From positions 12,430-76,429 of the forward strand of contig CAZWLD010000004.1 in assembly GCA_964634685.1 (NCBI GenBank): a stretch of 64,000 bases of DNA. Direction: 5' to 3'. Positions 1,443-20,121 of the stretch are shown one piece after another. This DNA comes from an uncultured Anaeroplasmatales bacterium. GTDB taxonomy: Bacteria; Bacillota_I; Bacilli_A; Acholeplasmatales; JAEDCM01. The notes beneath the pieces were generated by a model. That model saw only the letters and a list, made by a program, of their open reading frames with translations. It did no database searches and had not been told where the DNA came from. The stretch's first letter is position 1; each line of letters opens with the position of its first letter. The translations under genes and the position numbers were made by a program.

Positions 1443-2435
1443 ATGATAAAGATTATAAATGATTATTTTAACAAAAGCTTTGAGGAAAAAATTGTTTTCA
1501 CAACCTTTATATCGATAATTTTTAATTTAGTAATGGCATTAGCCAAGGTTTTGTTAGCTTTATTTTCTAGAACATATATTTTCTTGGTTTGTGGCGCTAT
1601 TAATTTGTGTTTAGGTATTTCTAAGGCCGAATGCTATGACGGGATAAAGAAGAATGCCCGGGGAATTGATTTTAATCGAAAAAACAATATCATAAGTGCT
1701 TTATTTATCACATCGGGAGTCTTGTATTCCTATTATATGCTTAGGTTTTTATTGTTTAATCCGAAAACCTTTGATTATACTGAGATTCTAGGAATCACGA
1801 TTGCTCTTGTTTCTTTTATCGAGATTGGTATGGCAATTTATGGAATTTTGAAAATTCATAAAAGCAGTCATTTCTATCGAAATATCAAAATCATCAATTT
1901 AGCTACTGCTAGTTGCGCTATCGTAATGACACAAATAGCGATTTTATCATTTACTAAATATGAAAATTCGTATCTTTATAATGGTATTACAGGATTAATT
2001 GTTGGTGTATTTATGATTATTTTAGGAATATTCATTATTATTTTACCGAAAGTAAGTATGATAGATTGTATTGAAAACAATTATCAAGCCCCAATTAATT
2101 TTCAAGAAAAAAATCCGGATATTGTAAAGAATGGAAAGGTTAAAATCATTTTTTCAAAAAGTCTAATTTATGGTGATTATTATTATCTTGGATATCTTAA
2201 TCAAAATATAATTACTGGCAAGCTTATTCATGAAAGAAAAGGCTTTAAATGTTTTAATATTTATGTTAAAATCATTGTATGTATTTTATCAGAAATATTA
2301 ATTTTTGTGTGGCTTATTGGACGTTTAATCAGCTTCACTAAAAATAGCTGTTTGCCCGAAAGACTCAATCGAATTATGTTAGATTTAGGATGTATACGAA
2401 TAGAATTACCAAGAGGAGGCAATAATAATGTTTGA
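1443..2435 (+). CDS. multi-pass membrane protein, unknown function
   Basis: 330-aa ORF with an RBS (AGGAGAGGG) and several hydrophobic segments. I recognise no motif. Confidence 0.55.
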   Translation: MIKIINDYFNKSFEEKIVFTTFISIIFNLVMALAKVLLALFSRTYIFLVCGAINLCLGISKAECYDGIKKNARGIDFNRKNNIISALFITSGVLYSYYMLRFLLFNPKTFDYTEILGITIALVSFIEIGMAIYGILKIHKSSHFYRNIKIINLATASCAIVMTQIAILSFTKYENSYLYNGITGLIVGVFMIILGIFIIILPKVSMIDCIENNYQAPINFQEKNPDIVKNGKVKIIFSKSLIYGDYYYLGYLNQNIITGKLIHERKGFKCFNIYVKIIVCILSEILIFVWLIGRLISFTKNSCLPERLNRIMLDLGCIRIELPRGGNNNV

Positions 2436-3453
2436 AGTGATTAGTGTGAATTTTTATGAAAATATTAAGAAATTAATTAATGAATCTAGAGAACATATTG
2501 TTACTTATGTGAATACAACTATGTTATTTACTTATTGGAATATTGGAAAAATGATTGTTGAAGAACAAGGTGGTGATAGTAAGGCAAAATATGGAAATAA
2601 ATTAATTGCTGAACTATCAAAGCAGATGACTTTCGATTTCGGAAAAGGGTTTGATGAAAGAAATCTTCGATATATGCGTCAGTTTTATTTATCATTTCCA
2701 ATTTGGAACACAGTGTGTTCCGAATTAAGTTGGTCTCATTATCGTACACTTATCAAAATTGAAGAACAAAAAATAAGAAACTTTTATATGGAGGAAGCAA
2801 TTAAAGGTAACTGGAGTGTAAGACAACTTGAAAGACAAATTGCTACATGCACATATAGCAGAGTAATTGCAAATAATACTAAAGTACAAAAGATTGATAA
2901 TGTTGATGAGTCTACATCGTTAATAAAATATGAACCTAATACAGTTATCAAAGATCCATATATGTTAGAATTTTTAGGATTAGATAATAATGTAAATTAT
3001 TTAGAAAAAGAATTAGAAGATGCATTGATTAATCATTTGCAAAAATTTTTGCTAGAACTTGGTCGAGGTTTCTGTTTTGTTGCAAGGCAAAAAAGGATTA
3101 CTTTTGACAATGAACATTATTTTATTGATTTGGTATTTTATAATGCTATATTAAAATGTTATGTAGTTATAGATTTAAAAACAGACAAGCTATCTCATGA
3201 AGCGTTAGGACAAATTGATTTATATAGAAATTATTATGACCAAGAAGTAAAAATGGCTGATGATAATCCAACAATTGGATTATTACTTGTTACTGAACAA
3301 GATACATTAGTGGCTAAGTATTCAAGTATATACAAAGACCAAAATATATTTGTTTCCAAATATATGACATATATGCCGACGGAAGAAGAATTGAAAAGGG
3401 TTATTAATGAAGAAAAAAGATTAATCGAGGAATATAAAATTTCTAGTAAATAA
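2428..3453 (+). CDS. PDDEXK nuclease-domain protein, YhcG/DUF1016-like
   Basis: DUF1016-style N-terminal region, followed by a C-terminal PD-(D/E)xK-like core (IDLVFYN ... VVIDLKTDKL). Confidence 0.75.
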   Translation: MFEVISVNFYENIKKLINESREHIVTYVNTTMLFTYWNIGKMIVEEQGGDSKAKYGNKLIAELSKQMTFDFGKGFDERNLRYMRQFYLSFPIWNTVCSELSWSHYRTLIKIEEQKIRNFYMEEAIKGNWSVRQLERQIATCTYSRVIANNTKVQKIDNVDESTSLIKYEPNTVIKDPYMLEFLGLDNNVNYLEKELEDALINHLQKFLLELGRGFCFVARQKRITFDNEHYFIDLVFYNAILKCYVVIDLKTDKLSHEALGQIDLYRNYYDQEVKMADDNPTIGLLLVTEQDTLVAKYSSIYKDQNIFVSKYMTYMPTEEELKRVINEEKRLIEEYKISSK

Positions 3454-4116: not shown

Positions 4117-4139
4117 CCTTTTTTTATTTATTATTTAAA

Positions 4140-4165
4140 ACATTTTGTTCAAAATGTGGTAGAAT
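4140..4165 (+). promoter_or_regulatory. 7-4-7 palindrome (ACATTTT-GTTC-AAAATGT) abutting an extended -10 (TGgTAGAAT); candidate operator and promoter of the GTPase pair
   Basis: The inverted repeat was read directly at 4140..4157. TGGTAGAAT lies at 4157..4165, about 30 nt upstream of the start at 4197. Confidence 0.35.
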
Positions 4166-4196
4166 ATATAGTGGTAGAAAAAGGAGTTGACTAATA

Positions 4197-5501
4197 ATGA
4201 TTAAGGTTGACGTAATTTCTGGCTTTTTAGGAGCTGGAAAAACAACATTAATTAAAAAATTATTTGAATCATCTTTAAAGGATGAAAAGGTAGTATTAAT
4301 TGAAAATGAATTTGGTGAAATTGGAATTGATGGTTCCTTTTTAAAGGATGCAGGAATTGACATTAAGGAAATTAATTCTGGTTGTATTTGTTGTTCTTTG
4401 GTCGGAGATTTTGCAGCTTCAATTAAAGAGGTTATTGCAAAATTTAATCCTGACCGCATTATTATTGAGCCATCTGGTGTCGGAAAGCTATCTGATATTG
4501 TTAATGCCATTGAAAATGTCGATGCCAATTTAGCATTGAATATTCTTGCGACGGTTGTGGATGGAACAAAAGCCAAGATTTATATGAAGAATTTTGGTGA
4601 GTTTTTCAACAATCAGGTTGAAACAGCTAATACCATTATTGTAAGTAAGACTGATAAAATGCAAGAGGATAAAATATTAACTGTTGTCGATCAGCTTAAG
4701 GAAAAGAATGAGCATGCCTTAATTATCACAACTGCAATTAATCTTTTAGATAGTAATAAGCTTTTAGAAACATTAGAAAAATCAGTTTCTTTACGTCAAG
4801 AGCTCTATGAGCAAATGATGGAAGAGCATCATCATCATGATGATGACGAATGTTGTTGTGACCATCATCATCACGACGATGATGAAGAATGTTGTTGTGG
4901 ACACCATCATGATCACGAGCATCATCACCATGACGATGAAGATGAATGTTGTTGTGGACACCATCATGATCACGATGAGGACGAAAATGAGTGCTGTTGC
5001 GGACATCATCATCACGACGATGATGAAGAATGCTGTTGTGGACACCATCATGATCACGAGCATCATCACGACGATGAAGAAGAATGTTGTTGTGGGCATC
5101 ATCATCACGATGAACACCACCATGATGACGAATGTTGTTGCGGACACCATCATCACGACGACGATGATGACGAATGCTGTTGTGGCCATCATCATGATCA
5201 CGAGCATCATCACCATGCTGATGAGGTATTTGTTAGTTGGGGCAAGGAAACACCACTTAGCTTTACGCGCGAACAATTAGAAAAATTCTTAAATGAATTG
5301 GCTAACAATGAGGAAGTTGGTATGGTTCTTCGTTCAAAGGGAATTCTTAAGGCTTCTGACAATGATTCTTGGTATTATTTTGATTTCGTTGCTGGTGATT
5401 ATGATATTCGCTTAGGCGAACCTGATGTTACAGGTCGAGTTTGTGTTATTGGCTCTAAATTAGATATAAAGAGAATTGAACATTTGTTTAGTGAAAGGTA
5501 A
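4197..5501 (+). CDS. COG0523 (CobW/YjiA/ZigA-type) G3E GTPase metallochaperone with a giant His/Asp/Cys-rich insert
   Basis: Walker A GFLGAGKTT, the family-defining CxCC motif (GCICCS), an SKTD specificity motif and a CobW_C-like tail. A 130-aa HHHH-DDD-E-CCC-G array sits between the domains. Confidence 0.9.
   Translation: MIKVDVISGFLGAGKTTLIKKLFESSLKDEKVVLIENEFGEIGIDGSFLKDAGIDIKEINSGCICCSLVGDFAASIKEVIAKFNPDRIIIEPSGVGKLSDIVNAIENVDANLALNILATVVDGTKAKIYMKNFGEFFNNQVETANTIIVSKTDKMQEDKILTVVDQLKEKNEHALIITTAINLLDSNKLLETLEKSVSLRQELYEQMMEEHHHHDDDECCCDHHHHDDDEECCCGHHHDHEHHHHDDEDECCCGHHHDHDEDENECCCGHHHHDDDEECCCGHHHDHEHHHDDEEECCCGHHHHDEHHHDDECCCGHHHHDDDDDECCCGHHHDHEHHHHADEVFVSWGKETPLSFTREQLEKFLNELANNEEVGMVLRSKGILKASDNDSWYYFDFVAGDYDIRLGEPDVTGRVCVIGSKLDIKRIEHLFSER
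4827..5216 (+). repeat. coding tandem array with eight CCC triplets embedded in His/Asp/Glu runs
   Basis: Eight TG(T/C)TG(T/C)TG(T/C) triplets, each flanked by CAT/CAC and GAT/GAC/GAA runs. The unit length is variable, roughly 39-48 nt. Confidence 0.9.
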
Positions 5502-5506
5502 TCGAA

Positions 5507-6442
5507 ATGAGAGATATTCCCGTATTTATTATTAATGGCTTTCTTGATTCTGGAAAAACCTCATTTATTATCGAAACCATTGCTCAAGATGAATTCTACA
5601 AAAAAGGGCGTACTCTAATTATAATGTGCGAGGATGGAGAGATTGAATATGATCCTGAATTCTTGCAAAATTACAATGTTGAACTATTGAAATTTGAAAA
5701 TCAATTAGAATATTCAATGCGTAAGGTTAATGATGTAATTAGAAAAAATGATATTCGTCGGGTAATTGTGGAAATGAACGATATGTGGGATTTTGATGCC
5801 ATTGATTTTCCATCCTATTGCCAGGTTATGCAGGAAGCTTTATTCATAAATTTTGAAACCTTTGGTATTTACTTCAATAACATGCGTCAAAAATTCGTGG
5901 AGCTAATTAAGCAAGCTGATTTGGTTGTCTTTAATCGTTGTGATGATATTGATGAATTACGAAAATACCAAACTAACATTAAAATGATTAATAATCAAGC
6001 TCGATATGTTGCGATGAACACTAGCGGTCAAATCCAAGAAGCATTTTTACGCGAGCTTCCATATGATATCAATGCCGATATCATTGAAATCCAAGATGAT
6101 GATTATGGTATTTGGTATATGGATACCTTTGATAATAAAGAGAATTATGTAAACAAGGTAGTTTGCTTTAATTGTCTAGTCGTATTATCAGATCAATTAC
6201 CAAAGGGAACCTTTATTGCTGGAAGATTAGCTATGACTTGCTGTGCCGATGATGTTCAGCTATTCGGACATCTTTGCAATGATATGCTTAATCTAAATTT
6301 GAAGGATCGCGAGTGGATAAAATTAACCGCAACCATTACCTATGAATATTCCGAAGAATATGAAGAGGAAGAGGCTATCCTAACACCTTTAAAAATTGAA
6401 AGAATAAAAGAAATCAAAACACCAATATTAAATTTTAGCTAA
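5507..6442 (+). CDS. P-loop GTPase-like protein lacking CxCC, fused to a DUF1980/YcgQ-type C-terminal domain (TCCxDD motif)
   Basis: P-loop NGFLDSGKTS and an NRCD motif in place of NKxD, with no CxCC. The C-terminal segment FIAGRLAMTCCADDVQLFG ... REWIKLTATI matches the DUF1980 (TIGR03943) C-terminal pattern as I remember it. Confidence 0.65.
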   Translation: MRDIPVFIINGFLDSGKTSFIIETIAQDEFYKKGRTLIIMCEDGEIEYDPEFLQNYNVELLKFENQLEYSMRKVNDVIRKNDIRRVIVEMNDMWDFDAIDFPSYCQVMQEALFINFETFGIYFNNMRQKFVELIKQADLVVFNRCDDIDELRKYQTNIKMINNQARYVAMNTSGQIQEAFLRELPYDINADIIEIQDDDYGIWYMDTFDNKENYVNKVVCFNCLVVLSDQLPKGTFIAGRLAMTCCADDVQLFGHLCNDMLNLNLKDREWIKLTATITYEYSEEYEEEEAILTPLKIERIKEIKTPILNFS

Positions 6443-6533: not shown

Positions 6534-7193
6534 ATGGATTTTTTATCAATTGATGGTCAATATGGCCATTATAAATTGATTTTAAAGGAAATTGAAGTCA
6601 AAAATATTGCTTATATCATAATTGATTCATATTCGGATTTAAAGCTTGTCCTCAAGGAGGCTAAAGCTGTGTTAAATAATTATCATCCGAAGAATATTTA
6701 TTTTCGGGTAAAAGAACCAATTAATGATTATTCTTTGCATTGTACAATTGATTGCTACTTGATGAAGCATCAGCGTTTTAAGATTAATAAGGATATGAAA
6801 TTTAAACCCCTTGATTTGGAAAATCGCTATGATTATCCTACTATGTGCAATAAAGCGATGGAAAAAATTGATTGTAGTGCAACCTTAACAGATGGTGATG
6901 TCTTTCAAATGATGAAGGATCAAACCAACAATATGGGATATATTCAGTATAAAAAGCAATTCGTGGCCGGATATAATATTTGTGGTAACACCCTTGATAC
7001 CTTCTTTGTCGATAAGGCTCATCAAAATCAAGGAATTGGTAAAATGGCTTTAGAGAAAATTATTAATAAAATCGATGATGATGTTTATCTAAATGTTGCT
7101 TCGACAAATAGTATTGCAATTAATTTATACCAAAGATATGGATTTACTTATGATCACACCGTTAGTTACTTTTATAAATTGGAGGAAAAATAA
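6534..7193 (+). CDS. GNAT family N-acetyltransferase
   Basis: C-terminal HQNQGIGKMALEKII and AINLYQRYGF motifs. RBS AGGGAGA. Confidence 0.7.
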   Translation: MDFLSIDGQYGHYKLILKEIEVKNIAYIIIDSYSDLKLVLKEAKAVLNNYHPKNIYFRVKEPINDYSLHCTIDCYLMKHQRFKINKDMKFKPLDLENRYDYPTMCNKAMEKIDCSATLTDGDVFQMMKDQTNNMGYIQYKKQFVAGYNICGNTLDTFFVDKAHQNQGIGKMALEKIINKIDDDVYLNVASTNSIAINLYQRYGFTYDHTVSYFYKLEEK

Positions 7194-18292: not shown

Positions 18293-18410
18293 CTTGGTTC
18301 CTCCTTTGTTGTACTCATCTATTATATCATATTAATATCTATTATTAAAGAGATTTTATTTTGAAACTCATTAAACTTATGGTATAATTGTAAGATGAGG
18401 ATTGATAATT

Positions 18411-19022
18411 ATGGACTATAATAAAGAAATGGAAATGATAATTGAAAAATTACAGACAAAGCCTAAATTGCTATTACATAGCTGTTGTGCTCCTTGTAGT
18501 AGTCATTGTCTTTTATTGTTAGCCCCATTTTTTGAAATAACAGTTTTTTATTTTAATCCTAATATTTCTCCCTTTGAAGAATATGAAAAAAGGGTTATTG
18601 AACAAAAAAGATTTATCGATGAAATAAATAAAGAATTTGGGTATAATATTTCATATGTTGATAGCCCTTATGATAGTATTCCCTTTTATAATAAAATAAA
18701 AGGTCAAGAGGGATTAAAAGAGGGTCAGGCGCGCTGTTATAATTGTTATTATTTGCGCTTAGAGGAAACTGCAAAATATGCTAAAGAAAATCAATTTGAT
18801 TATTTTTGCACGACCTTATCGGTTTCGCCATATAAAAATTCTAATTGGATTAATGAAATCGGAAAAGAGTTAGAAAAGAAATATAATATTTTATTCTTAC
18901 CATCGGATTTTAAGAAAAAGGAAGGCTATAAGCATTCAATTGCTTTATCTAAACAATATAATTTATATCGCCAACATTATTGTGGATGCGAGTTTTCAAG
19001 GAGAGATTTCAATGAAAAATAA
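18411..19022 (+). CDS. queH: epoxyqueuosine reductase QueH (DUF208)
   Basis: The QueH cysteine motifs HSCCAPCS and HYCGCEFS are present. Confidence 0.85.
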   Translation: MDYNKEMEMIIEKLQTKPKLLLHSCCAPCSSHCLLLLAPFFEITVFYFNPNISPFEEYEKRVIEQKRFIDEINKEFGYNISYVDSPYDSIPFYNKIKGQEGLKEGQARCYNCYYLRLEETAKYAKENQFDYFCTTLSVSPYKNSNWINEIGKELEKKYNILFLPSDFKKKEGYKHSIALSKQYNLYRQHYCGCEFSRRDFNEK

Positions 19023-20121
19023 AATTATCAAAAAACAATTATCCTTTGATTTATATTTTTATGGATTTGTGATGTTTGTTTGTATATCAGTTATTGCTTG
19101 TGGATTTAAGCTAGAATCAAATCTATTGATTTTTTTGTTTTTTGGTATATTAGTTATTTATACCCTTTTGTTTTCCTTTTCTTTAGTTAAATATTTATTT
19201 TGTTATGGTGATTTAACCAAAAATGAATTTACAGATTATTTCAAAAATATTGATTTATTCACTAAAGAATATGTTGAAAAAAAGAAAAAAACAGATACTA
19301 TTTTAAAAAAGGTTTTTGATTGGAGCTTAATTGGAATATGCTTTGTTTGTGCTCTTTTTATCCTAATAGGTTCATTTTTTGACCAAATGGTTTTGGCATT
19401 AGTTTACCCGGGATGGTTTTGTTCATTGTTAGTTATTTTCTTTATTGTAATGATGATTATGAAGCATATTGATCATTCAAATGATTTTTTATATAAGCTT
19501 AAATATTGCTTCATAAGAATAACAAATGATTCGATATATTACCAAGGAAATGTTTATTTGATTAATCGCTTAGGCTTTAAATATCAGGATGGTGTTATTT
19601 CTTTTTTAGGGTTAAAGCTTGCGACCATTGATTTTGATGCTTTAACGAAGGTTGAACCAGAAATTGAATATTTAGTAAGTGCTTGTTTAGTTGGAAATAA
19701 TGTCAAATATGATGGTGGAAATAATTTACGGGAGCCAATTAAGGCTTTATTTCAAGAAGGAAAGGCTATTACTATTTGTCCAGAGGTTATGGGAGGAAGA
19801 ACAATTCCTCGTAAAACTTCAGAAAAAAATGGTGAGATTGTTATCGAAGAGGATGGAACGGATGTGACTAACCAATTTATTAGGGGTGCAGAATTAGCTT
19901 TAGAAAAGGCTGTTTTATATAATGTAAATAAAGCCATTTTAAAAGCGAAGAGTCCATCGTGTGGAGTGAATCAAATTTATGATGGAACCTTCTCGCATAC
20001 ATTGACATCAGGTGATGGTATTACGACGGAATTATTAAAGAAAAATGGAATTTTTTGTATGACGGATATTGAATACTTAGAATCCATTAAAGGGGAAGAT
20101 AACGATGGAGAAGAAAGTTAA
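19012..20121 (+). CDS. membrane-anchored DUF523 (TudS-like) protein
   Basis: ATG 19012 follows AGGAGAG and overlaps the queH end. The N-terminal ~210 aa contain four hydrophobic helices. The C-terminal part carries DUF523 motifs SACLVG..VKYDGG, CPEVMGG and SPSCG. Confidence 0.7.
   Translation: MKNKIIKKQLSFDLYFYGFVMFVCISVIACGFKLESNLLIFLFFGILVIYTLLFSFSLVKYLFCYGDLTKNEFTDYFKNIDLFTKEYVEKKKKTDTILKKVFDWSLIGICFVCALFILIGSFFDQMVLALVYPGWFCSLLVIFFIVMMIMKHIDHSNDFLYKLKYCFIRITNDSIYYQGNVYLINRLGFKYQDGVISFLGLKLATIDFDALTKVEPEIEYLVSACLVGNNVKYDGGNNLREPIKALFQEGKAITICPEVMGGRTIPRKTSEKNGEIVIEEDGTDVTNQFIRGAELALEKAVLYNVNKAILKAKSPSCGVNQIYDGTFSHTLTSGDGITTELLKKNGIFCMTDIEYLESIKGEDNDGEES

What the first reader, a model, noticed from the sequence alone, without database searches (positions are those of the whole stretch)
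4827..5216. COG0523 GTPase with an eight-fold E-CCC-G-HHH(H)-D/E array (24 Cys in triplets inside a 130-aa His/Asp tract)
COG0523 metallochaperones are known to carry His-rich linkers between the GTPase and C-terminal domains. This linker is unusually long and strictly periodic. Each unit contains a Cys triplet followed by Gly and a His run, separated by Asp/Glu runs. Cys triplets suggest thiolate-rich, cluster-type binding of soft metals (Zn, Cu(I), Cd, Ni, Co) rather than simple His-tag-like buffering. At the DNA level the array is a degenerate tandem repeat, so its copy number could vary between strains.
Basis: partly seen in the sequence, partly recalled or inferred. Interest (0 to 1): 0.7.

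Follow-up and report, generated by a model that had tools for sequence, protein, structure and literature searches.

The report
Cys-triplet/His repeat linker in COG0523 GTPase
A metal-chaperone GTPase from a low-GC gut Firmicute carries a real, eight-unit cysteine-triplet/histidine repeat between its two domains; the repeat is common and length-variable in relatives, appears undescribed, and most likely acts as a multi-site metal-holding tether.

Summary
ORF 4197-5501 (+) is a COG0523 G3E GTPase, and nt 4827-5216 encode 130 aa made of only H50, D29, C24, E19, G7 and N1, with 8 CCC triplets.

The array is not unique. 119 of the 120 best homologues (Erysipelotrichaceae/Bacilli MAGs) carry 2-8 such units. 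Copy number varies among proteins whose folded domains are at least 95% identical: 3-7, 3-8 and 2-8.

In the wider Clostridia family the same position holds CxC, CxCxC, CC or CCC motifs within His-rich repeats, so CCC is one version of a conserved "E-C-x-C-G-His" unit.

The gene always travels with a second gene. This encodes a paralogous G-domain that has lost the CxCC metal site, fused to the uncharacterised DUF1980_C domain with an invariant TCCxxD motif.

I found no Zur/Fur/NikR-type operator, no riboswitch and no metal-related neighbours.

Best reading: a disordered thiolate/imidazole metal-binding tether that stores metal and reloads or gates the CxCC site. Zn(II) is most likely, with Ni/Co as rivals. 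It is comparable to the His-rich region of Cupriavidus CobW2 and the Cys/His tails of SlyD and Hpn.

This is a new variant of a known kind. No paper found describes it. Metal identity and stoichiometry are untested.

The parts
4157..4165 (+). Extended -10 promoter-like element TGgTAGAAT. The palindrome ACATTTTGTTCAAAATGT (4140-4157) lies just upstream of it.
   Evidence: Read from the sequence. A TGnTAnAAT element lies at the same distance from the RBS in all six other lineages inspected (L001, L003, L005, L006, L018, L086/L088). The palindrome has a mismatch in the conspecific contig L088 and is absent elsewhere, so it is probably not an operator. The consensus promoter scan found no -35/-10 pair here.
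4197..5501 (+). COG0523 (G3E P-loop) GTPase gene, 434 aa
   Evidence: Pfam cobW plus CobW_C. The closest solved structure is E. coli YjiA, E 8.5e-18. No NCBIfam equivalog reaches its cut-off.
4221..4244 (+). Walker A motif GFLGAGKT (aa 9-16)
4383..4394 (+). CxCC metal-binding motif C63-I-C65-C66
   Evidence: This is the defining COG0523 metal site (PMC13001444, PMC11672702).
4827..5216 (+). Eight-unit E-CCC-G-His-(D/E) array, aa 211-340 (24 Cys, 50 His, 48 Asp/Glu)
5217..5498 (+). CobW_C C-terminal domain. The conserved junction ADEVFVSWG immediately follows the array.
   Evidence: Pfam. The junction is conserved in all lineages inspected.
5331..5342 (+). RxKG 'arginine finger' motif RSKG (aa 379-382)
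   Evidence: present in 120 of 120 close homologues and 63 of 67 genome-set orthologues. Motif function is taken from PMC13001444.
5507..6442 (+). Co-transcribed partner, 311 aa: a COG0523-like G-domain lacking CxCC, fused to DUF1980_C
   Evidence: Pfam DUF1980_C at aa 182-306 (E 6e-17) and cobW at aa 5-167 (E 2e-9). hhalign against the COG0523 G-domain gives probability 99.5%, with a 7-residue gap exactly over SGCICCS. The AF2 model has mean pLDDT 90. Foldseek finds HypB and YjiA for the N-domain and OB-fold chains for the C-domain. The gene starts 5 nt after the first gene's stop codon.
6236..6253 (+). Invariant TCCADD motif of the partner (C245, C246 and D249 invariant)
   Evidence: Alignments of 54 and 63 homologues

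Best explanation
The array is an intrinsically disordered, multi-site metal-binding tether. It links the G-domain, which carries the CxCC metal site, to the C-terminal domain, which carries the RxKG arginine finger, in a COG0523 metallochaperone GTPase.

Each unit consists of an acidic run, E-C-C-C-G, and a His run. Each unit therefore offers a thiolate plus imidazole site, and eight units should hold roughly eight or more divalent ions. Zn(II) is the most likely metal.

The tether probably does two things. It acts as a local store or buffer. It also supplies ligands and metal to the CxCC site, reloading it and/or gating GTP hydrolysis when the C-terminal domain docks back on the G-domain.

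The protein works with the co-transcribed paralogue, which has a CxCC-less G-domain and a DUF1980_C domain with an invariant TCCxxD motif.

The array grows and shrinks by in-frame gain and loss of units and is homogenised within each lineage, so metal capacity differs between strains.

Shown: the anatomy, the conservation, the polymorphism and the gene pairing. Inferred: metal binding, metal identity, stoichiometry, and the store/gate role.
For: 1. Canonical COG0523 features are present: Walker A, CxCC, ExSG, CobW_C and RxKG.

2. The array contains only metal-ligand or acidic residues plus Gly.

3. The Cys positions are under constraint.
- All 24 Cys codons are kept although 5 have drifted TGT to TGC.
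- In 575 units from 120 homologues, the middle residue is Cys in 550, the preceding residue is E in 529, and the following residue is G in 486.
- 61 of 67 species-level orthologues, mostly Clostridia, keep at least 2 Cys in a His-rich linker.

4. All repeat periods are multiples of 3.

5. Copy number varies within lineages whose folded domains are at least 95% identical. Exact 3-unit and 4-unit proteins were each recovered on 5 or more independent contigs.

6. Precedents in the literature.
- C. metallidurans CobW2 is a COG0523 protein with a large internal His-rich region predicted to be random coil. It binds about 7 Zn and is proposed as a zinc store (PMC11340326).
- In ZigA the linker folds over the CxCC Zn site and gates GTP hydrolysis (PMC13001444).
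- His/Cys-rich tails of SlyD and the EEGCC repeats of Hpn bind Ni/Zn (PMC3292732, PMC5312948).

7. The two-gene pair is conserved in 54 of the 67 genome loci analysed and in every close relative examined, while all other neighbours vary.
Against: - There is no experimental metal data for any member of this subfamily.
- I found no Zur, Fur, PerR, AdcR, NikR, CsoR or CopY-like box upstream in 67 loci. There is no riboswitch and no metal-related neighbour enrichment. Nothing therefore ties the module to zinc or to any particular metal.
- A high-capacity Cys/His sink seems counter-productive for a zinc-starvation chaperone.
- CGC and CTCGC variants in relatives resemble the HypB and SlyD nickel motifs. 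This resemblance is from my own knowledge and was not tested.
- Some of the apparent copy-number variation could come from short-read assembly. 8 of 9 contigs carrying the identical partner end inside the array.
Confidence: 0.55

Rival explanations
1. Nickel and/or cobalt handling. The Cys/His array would be a Ni(II)/Co(II) reservoir like the SlyD tail, Hpn or His-rich HypB, serving a Ni or Co enzyme.
For: - Relatives carry CGC, CTCGC and CC motifs in His-rich repeats. These resemble the SlyD tail and the HypB N-terminal motif, but the resemblance is from my own knowledge and is a lead, not a test.
- SlyD and Hpn precedents exist.
- The absence of Zur-type control fits a role outside zinc starvation.
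- CobW3 binds Ni, Co and Cd as well as Zn in metal mixtures.
Against: - No hyp, ure, coo, lar or cobalamin genes lie next to the pair in any of 67 genomes.
- No NikR-like box and no NiCo riboswitch were found.
- HypB and CobW NCBIfam models score far below their cut-offs.
Confidence: 0.2
2. Metallothionein-like sequestration of thiophilic or toxic metals such as Cu(I), Cd or As. The GTPase part would be secondary.
For: - There are 24 clustered Cys.
- The partner domain belongs to DUF1980/TIGR03943, a putative permease subunit family, and has an invariant CC pair.
- No starvation-type regulation was found.
Against: - No efflux pump, CsoR, CopY or ArsR lies nearby.
- His outnumbers Cys 2:1, and in many orthologues by 5-10:1.
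- Intact GTPase and arginine-finger motifs argue for a chaperone cycle.
Confidence: 0.1
3. Redox switch. In these strict anaerobes, oxidation of the vicinal thiols would release stored metal or alter linker compaction, coupling oxygen or oxidant exposure to GTPase activity.
For: Vicinal Cys triplets are highly oxidisable. The carriers are gut anaerobes (source names). This is inference only.
Against: - There is no associated thioredoxin, peroxiredoxin or PerR signal.
- Lineages with CxC or a single Cys, and a few with none, keep the same architecture.
Confidence: 0.08
4. The exact length of 8 units is an assembly artefact, or the array is a neutral low-complexity expansion with no specific function.
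For: - 8 of 9 metagenome contigs carrying the identical partner gene break inside the array.
- The 434-aa product is not on record in the gene index.
- The window's internal unit order differs from that of the conspecific contig L088.
Against: - The longest exact internal repeat is 36 nt and no 41-mer is repeated, so the array is resolvable from ordinary reads.
- An independent assembly of the same species also has 8 units.
- The Logan contig L089 reproduces the window's last three units exactly.
- An unrelated lineage, P0002, also reaches 8 units.
- Cys, E and G positions are conserved across about 575 units, and synonymous drift is seen without replacement. This argues against neutrality.
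Confidence: 0.07

Closest known systems
Cupriavidus metallidurans CobW2 (COG0523 with an internal His-rich region; proposed zinc store)
   Same: Same family and same architecture: G-domain with a metal site, a long disordered metal-ligand-rich insert in the middle of the chain, and a C-terminal domain. CobW2 binds about 7 Zn per chain at low affinity (PMC11340326).
   Different: The paper describes CobW2's insert as His-rich and never uses the word cysteine. CobW2 is Zur-regulated. Here the insert carries 24 Cys in triplets, is a length-variable tandem repeat, shows no Zur-type box, and the gene is paired with a DUF1980_C paralogue.
Acinetobacter baumannii ZigA / MigC (zinc metallochaperone COG0523 proteins)
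   Same: CxCC Zn site, CobW_C domain with an RxKG arginine finger, and a linker that can fold over the metal site and gate GTP hydrolysis (PMC13001444). The window protein has CxCC and RSKG.
   Different: The ZigA NCBIfam model scores 72 bits against a cut-off of 600. The ZigA linker is short, with a conserved PETEEY element, and is not a Cys/His repeat.
E. coli YjiA (the only solved COG0523 structures)
   Same: Best PDB sequence match for the G-domain, E 8.5e-18 over aa 2-180.
   Different: The YjiA-type model (PRK11537) scores 86 bits against a cut-off of 361. YjiA has no long Cys/His linker.
SlyD C-terminal tail and Helicobacter Hpn (His/Cys-rich metal-binding sequences)
   Same: Disordered His-rich sequences with embedded vicinal Cys, such as the EEGCC repeats in Hpn. 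They bind several Ni/Zn ions (PMC3292732, PMC5312948). This is a functional analogy.
   Different: They are unrelated proteins, have far fewer Cys and no regular 8-unit array, and sit at a terminus rather than between two domains of a GTPase.
DUF1980 / TIGR03943 'putative permease subunit' (relates to the partner gene)
   Same: The partner's C-terminal 125 aa match PF21537, E 6e-17, and share the TCCxxD motif.
   Different: TIGR03943 scores 53 bits against a cut-off of 89. Here the domain is fused to a CxCC-less COG0523-type G-domain. The family has no characterised member.

Membership tests
COG0523 (G3E P-loop GTPase metallochaperones) | G-domain with Walker A GxxGxGK[ST], ExxG and NKxD-type motifs | tested here: met
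   Pfam cobW E 9e-37. GFLGAGKT at aa 9-16, EPSG at 91-94, SKTD at 150-153.
COG0523 (G3E P-loop GTPase metallochaperones) | CxCC metal-binding motif in the G-domain | tested here: met
   C63-I-C65-C66
COG0523 (G3E P-loop GTPase metallochaperones) | CobW_C C-terminal domain with the invariant RxKG motif | tested here: met
   PF07683 E 9e-9. RSKG at aa 379-382, conserved in 120 of 120 close homologues. Motif definition from PMC13001444.
COG0523 (G3E P-loop GTPase metallochaperones) | Metal-stimulated GTP hydrolysis and metal transfer to a client | not testable with these tools
   Requires biochemistry.
CobW (cobalamin-biosynthesis cobalt chaperone, TIGR02475) | Equivalog model score; cob gene context | tested here: not met
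   87 bits against a cut-off of 332. No cobalamin genes were found among the annotated window ORFs or the neighbours in 67 genomes.
ZigA / Zur-regulated zinc-starvation COG0523 | Equivalog model score | tested here: not met
   NF038288 scores 72 bits against a cut-off of 600.
ZigA / Zur-regulated zinc-starvation COG0523 | Zur operator upstream, or linkage to znu/adc genes, folE2 or ribosomal paralogues | tested here: inconclusive
   The best match to the Bacillus-type Zur box has 4 or more mismatches in all 67 upstream regions, and neighbours are not enriched for such genes. However, the Zur consensus for these taxa is not known to me.
HypB (nickel GTPase) | Equivalog model score; hyp operon context | tested here: not met
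   TIGR00073 scores 20 bits against a cut-off of 121. No hyp neighbours were found.
CobW2-type 'zinc-storage' COG0523 (functional class, not a curated family) | Large internal disordered ligand-rich insert between the G-domain and the CTD | tested here: met
   130-aa insert made only of H, D, C, E, G and N between Pfam domain ends 174 and 347. Disorder is inferred from composition and was not modelled.
CobW2-type 'zinc-storage' COG0523 (functional class, not a curated family) | Binds several Zn(II) per chain | not testable with these tools
   Needs ICP-MS or ITC.
Metallothionein | Small Cys-rich protein forming metal-thiolate clusters; matches an MT family model | tested here: not met
   No MT family appears among the Pfam hits. 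Cys is 18% of the array and His 38%. The array is embedded in a 434-aa enzyme. Cluster formation was not tested.

The most novel reading that the evidence does not exclude
The pair is a self-contained, uncharacterised two-GTPase metal-trafficking module of gut Firmicutes.

In this reading the long Cys/His tether acts as a reloadable 'magazine' for the CxCC site. It also gives the RxKG-bearing C-terminal domain enough reach to act as the GTPase activator for the partner's G-domain as well. The partner has no CxCC and, in this genome, no RxKG, but it carries a TCCxxD OB-like domain that could be the metal acceptor or hand-off point.

Array copy number would then set a heritable, strain-specific metal quota. 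It would be a coding VNTR tuning metal physiology in the gut.
Probability: 0.15. Interest if true: 0.7.

Novelty: new variant of a known kind. Interest (0 to 1): 0.45.

Why it matters
COG0523 proteins are central to bacterial responses to metal scarcity, yet the role of their variable linkers is only now being worked out (PMC13001444).

This subfamily is widespread in human and animal gut Clostridia and Bacilli. The word-index search returned 8,000 scored relatives, which is its cap, and the partner has 985 protein clusters. It offers an extreme, naturally variable linker made almost entirely of metal ligands, plus an obligate partner built from a domain of unknown function.

If the array stores or gates metal, natural 2-8-unit alleles form a ready-made dose series for testing how linker capacity affects chaperone function. 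They could also explain strain differences in metal tolerance under dietary or calprotectin-imposed zinc limitation.

There is also a practical point. The array breaks metagenome assemblies, so the gene is often truncated or missing in MAG annotations.

Tried and rejected
- Exact look-up of the 434-aa product returned nothing on record. The identical partner protein was used instead.
- The palindrome ACATTTTGTTCAAAATGT (4140-4157) was considered as an operator. Occurrence in the window is no better than chance (4 matches against 2.6 expected). It has a mismatch in the conspecific contig L088 and is absent in other lineages. Rejected.
- A shared-palindrome search and scans for Zur, Fur, PerR, AdcR, NikR, CsoR and CopY boxes in 67-80 upstream regions found nothing.
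- The Rfam gathering scan found no riboswitch near the operon, only a c-di-GMP-I element 58 kb away.
- Neighbour enrichment used 117 flanking proteins from 67 genomes. The top family was peptidyl-tRNA hydrolase, in 6 of 117. Nothing metal-related appeared.
- The idea that DUF1980_C is a diverged CobW_C was rejected. hhalign probability was 1.5%.
- Single-sequence AF2 of the partner was unusable, with pLDDT 42. It was repeated with a 63-sequence alignment.
- The PDB sequence search with the partner returned no meaningful hit.
- Literature searches covered COG0523 with cysteine-rich, His-rich, linker, SSN and C. difficile, and also DUF1980, COG3689, TIGR03943 and YcgQ. Literal strings CCCGHH, CCCHHD, CGCGHDH and CTCGCHD were searched too. 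No description of this array or of the partner was found.
The window organism is therefore placed only as a low-GC (about 32%) Erysipelotrichaceae/Bacilli-like gut bacterium, based on the names of homologues.
Full report
**1.

The ORF at 4197..5501 (+) encodes a 434-aa protein. Pfam finds a cobW G-domain at aa 4-174 (E 9e-37) and a CobW_C domain at aa 347-432 (E 9e-9). The expected motifs are present: Walker A GFLGAGKT, CxCC (C63-I-C65-C66), EPSG and SKTD.

The flagged interval 4827-5216 is in frame. It translates to 130 residues using only six amino acids: H50, D29, C24, E19, G7 and N1. It contains exactly eight CCC triplets. Every triplet is preceded by Glu. Seven are followed by Gly and the first by Asp. 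No other long ORF in the window contains CCC, and background Cys and His are 1.7% each.

At the DNA level, Tandem Repeats Finder reports a degenerate array over 4827-5224. Unit periods are 39-57 nt, with a higher-order 141-nt period at 82% matches. All periods are multiples of three. Units are 13-19 aa long, so the array is quasi-periodic rather than strictly periodic. The ORFs at 4791-5276 (-) and 4837-5280 (+) are other-frame readings of the same repeat.

**2. The array is a family trait, not a curiosity of this genome**

Of the 120 best homologues, nearly all from gut metagenomes and named Erysipelotrichaceae or Bacilli bacterium where named at all, 119 carry 2-8 CCC units. In 575 units from these proteins:
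- the middle residue of C-x-C is Cys in 550;
- the preceding residue is Glu in 529;
- the following residue is Gly in 486;
- units are mostly 14-17 aa long.

A search with the G-domain alone against 50%-identity representatives is not biased by the linker. It shows that more distant relatives have His-rich linkers with CC, CGC, CxCxC, CDDPxCxC or occasionally CCC motifs, or no Cys at all.

I analysed 67 species-level orthologues from GTDB genomes. They include Lachnospiraceae, Oscillospiraceae, Ruminococcus, Blautia, Anaerostipes, Butyrivibrio, Gemmiger, Flavonifractor and an Alloiococcus.
- 61 have at least 2 Cys in the linker.
- Motif classes, counted by species, are CxC 25, CxCxC 22, CC 15, CCC 11 and CxxxxCxC 6.
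- CCC arrays occur in species whose nearest relatives carry CGC arrays in the same sequence context. Ca. Blautia equi has ECCCGHDH and Blautia difficilis has ECGCGHDH, with folded domains about 81% identical.

The conserved element is therefore an acidic run, C-x-C-G and a His run. CCC is the version fixed in this clade. All units of one array usually share the same version, which indicates concerted evolution.

**3. Copy number is polymorphic**

I clustered the 120 homologues plus the window protein at 95% or more identity of the folded domains only. CCC counts within clusters were 3-7 (71 members), 3-8 (11), 3-5 (10), 2-4 (5) and 2-8 (the window's own cluster).

In the window's cluster, P0001 has 5 units and P0003/P0004 have 2. 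Their G-domains are 97-98% identical to the window's, although the surrounding DNA is only 86-91% identical.

Loci L001 and L003 have 96-97% identical flanks and come from different samples. They carry 3 and 4 units. Each of these exact proteins was recovered on 5 or more contigs.

The partner protein of the window occurs with 100% identity on nine other contigs.
- Eight of these contigs end inside the array.
- Only L088 spans the array, giving a 424-aa protein that also has eight units, but with a different order of short and long units.
- L089 reproduces the window's last three units exactly.

The longest exact internal repeat is 36 nt and no 41-mer is repeated. The contig breaks are therefore better explained by co-existing array variants than by an unresolvable repeat. 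Read-level confirmation is still missing.

**4. Evidence for selection**

All 24 Cys codons are retained although five have drifted from TGT to TGC. His (CAT/CAC), Asp and Glu codons are also mixed. Together with the cross-lineage conservation described above, this argues against a recent neutral slippage product.

**5. Context**

A 311-aa gene follows at 5507-6442, starting 5 nt after the stop codon.
- Its N-terminal half is a COG0523-type G-domain. hhalign probability is 99.5%, and a 7-residue gap falls exactly over SGCICCS, so the CxCC site is deleted.
- Walker A and several other motifs are invariant.
- Its C-terminal half matches DUF1980_C (PF21537, E 6e-17) and carries an invariant TCCxxD.
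- It is not homologous to CobW_C. In this genome it has no RxKG, and 41 of 54 orthologues also have none.
- An AF2 model built with 63 homologues has mean pLDDT 90. Foldseek matches HypB and YjiA for the G-domain and OB-fold chains such as 8d0b_C for the C-domain.

The pair is conserved in every close relative examined and in 54 of the 67 analysed genomes, while other neighbours vary. Among 117 flanking proteins, no family occurs more than 6 times and none is metal-related.

The window neighbours are ordinary genes:
- two GNAT acetyltransferases;
- AsnA;
- a polysaccharide deacetylase;
- NUDIX;
- a U32 peptidase;
- LeuRS;
- TrkAH.

An extended -10 element (TGnTAnAAT) precedes the gene in all lineages inspected. 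I found no Zur, Fur, PerR, AdcR, NikR, CsoR or CopY-like box, no shared palindrome and no riboswitch. The local palindrome at 4140-4157 is not conserved. Nothing therefore indicates metal-responsive control.

**6. Mechanism**

*Established knowledge*
- COG0523 proteins bind Zn(II), or Co(II) in CobW, at CxCC and couple this to GTP (PMC11672702).
- The C-terminal domain supplies an RxKG arginine finger.
- In ZigA the linker folds over the CxCC site and gates hydrolysis (PMC13001444).
- C. metallidurans CobW2 has a large internal His-rich, predicted-disordered region. It binds about 7 Zn and is proposed as a zinc store (PMC11340326).
- SlyD tails and the Hpn EEGCC repeats are Cys/His sequences that bind several Ni/Zn ions.

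*Inference*
- The window protein has CxCC and RSKG, joined by a 130-aa tether made of ligands.
- The tether is most likely a multi-site thiolate/imidazole metal binder.
- It would store metal next to the CxCC site and reload and/or gate that site.
- Capacity would scale with unit number.

Zn(II) is the default for the family. Ni/Co is a serious rival, given the CGC-type motifs in relatives and the lack of Zur-type control. Detoxification, a redox switch and neutral expansion are less likely, for the reasons given under the rival explanations.

**7. Comparison with what is known**

The protein is a member of COG0523, and every sequence-level defining feature tested was met. It does not reach the cut-off of any curated equivalog:

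| Model | Score (bits) | Cut-off (bits) |
|---|---|---|
| CobW | 87 | 332 |
| YjiA-type (PRK11537) | 86 | 361 |
| ZigA | 72 | 600 |
| HypB | 20 | 121 |
| CobW-related selenoprotein | 96 | 180 |

It probably works like CobW2 and ZigA. It differs from them in its Cys-containing VNTR linker, in the apparent absence of Zur control, and in its obligate DUF1980_C paralogue.

Ten of the 60 literature look-ups I could make were full-text searches, nine of which were used, including literal sequence strings. None found a description of the array or of the partner.

**8. Verdict**

This is a real and conserved feature that appears undescribed, but it is a variation on a known theme and not unique to this genome. 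Novelty: new variant of a known kind. Interest: 0.45. The conserved two-GTPase pairing and the natural allelic series of array lengths are the most useful leads.

Noticed in passing
window 5507-6442 (+): Conserved partner gene. It encodes a COG0523-like G-domain with the CxCC motif precisely deleted, fused to the uncharacterised DUF1980_C domain. That domain is predicted to be an OB-like beta-barrel and has an invariant TCCxxD. The partner family has 985 protein clusters, named only 'hypothetical', 'GTPase' or 'putative membrane protein'.
   Followed up: yes
loci L089-L096 (contigs carrying the identical partner protein): Eight of nine metagenome contigs end inside the CCC array, although the longest exact internal repeat is only 36 nt. 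The gene is therefore often truncated in MAGs. This probably reflects co-existing array variants.
   Followed up: partly
window 4197-5501: The exact 434-aa product is not on record in the gene-position index, although products of neighbouring genes from the same 93,785-nt NCBI contig are on record.
   Followed up: no
window 63126-63209 (+): c-di-GMP-I riboswitch aptamer, 75 bits against a gathering score of 35. It is the only Rfam hit in the window.
   Followed up: no
window 22829-24442 and 24665-25489 (+): Two BspA-type leucine-rich-repeat proteins. In related contigs the first appears only as fragments of about 190 aa.
   Followed up: no
window 2428-3453 (+); L088 424-654: A YhcG/DUF1016 PDDEXK nuclease gene lies upstream. 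In the conspecific contig L088 only a 76-aa remnant is called, so this flank varies between strains.
   Followed up: no
window 4117-4196; L086, L087, L088: The last 80 nt or so before the start codon are almost identical between the window and sister contigs whose coding DNA is only 86-91% identical. The region contains TGgTAGAAT, a 9-nt direct repeat GTGGTAGAA present twice, and a strong RBS. The reason for this conservation was not resolved.
   Followed up: partly
L022 (Ca. Blautia equi) vs L017 (Blautia difficilis): Whole arrays differ by a single residue class, ECCCGHDH versus ECGCGHDH, between species whose folded domains are about 81% identical. This is an example of concerted evolution of a coding repeat.
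   Followed up: partly
window 18402-19022 and 18940-20121 (+): The QueH (epoxyqueuosine reductase) ORF overlaps by about 80 nt the start of an ORF containing a 2-thiouracil desulfurase domain. The start of the second ORF is probably called too early.
   Followed up: no
window 6534-7193 (+) vs L088/L090: The downstream GNAT gene exists in two forms among contigs carrying the identical partner: 219 aa starting about 90 nt after the partner, and 236 aa starting about 40 nt after it.
   Followed up: no
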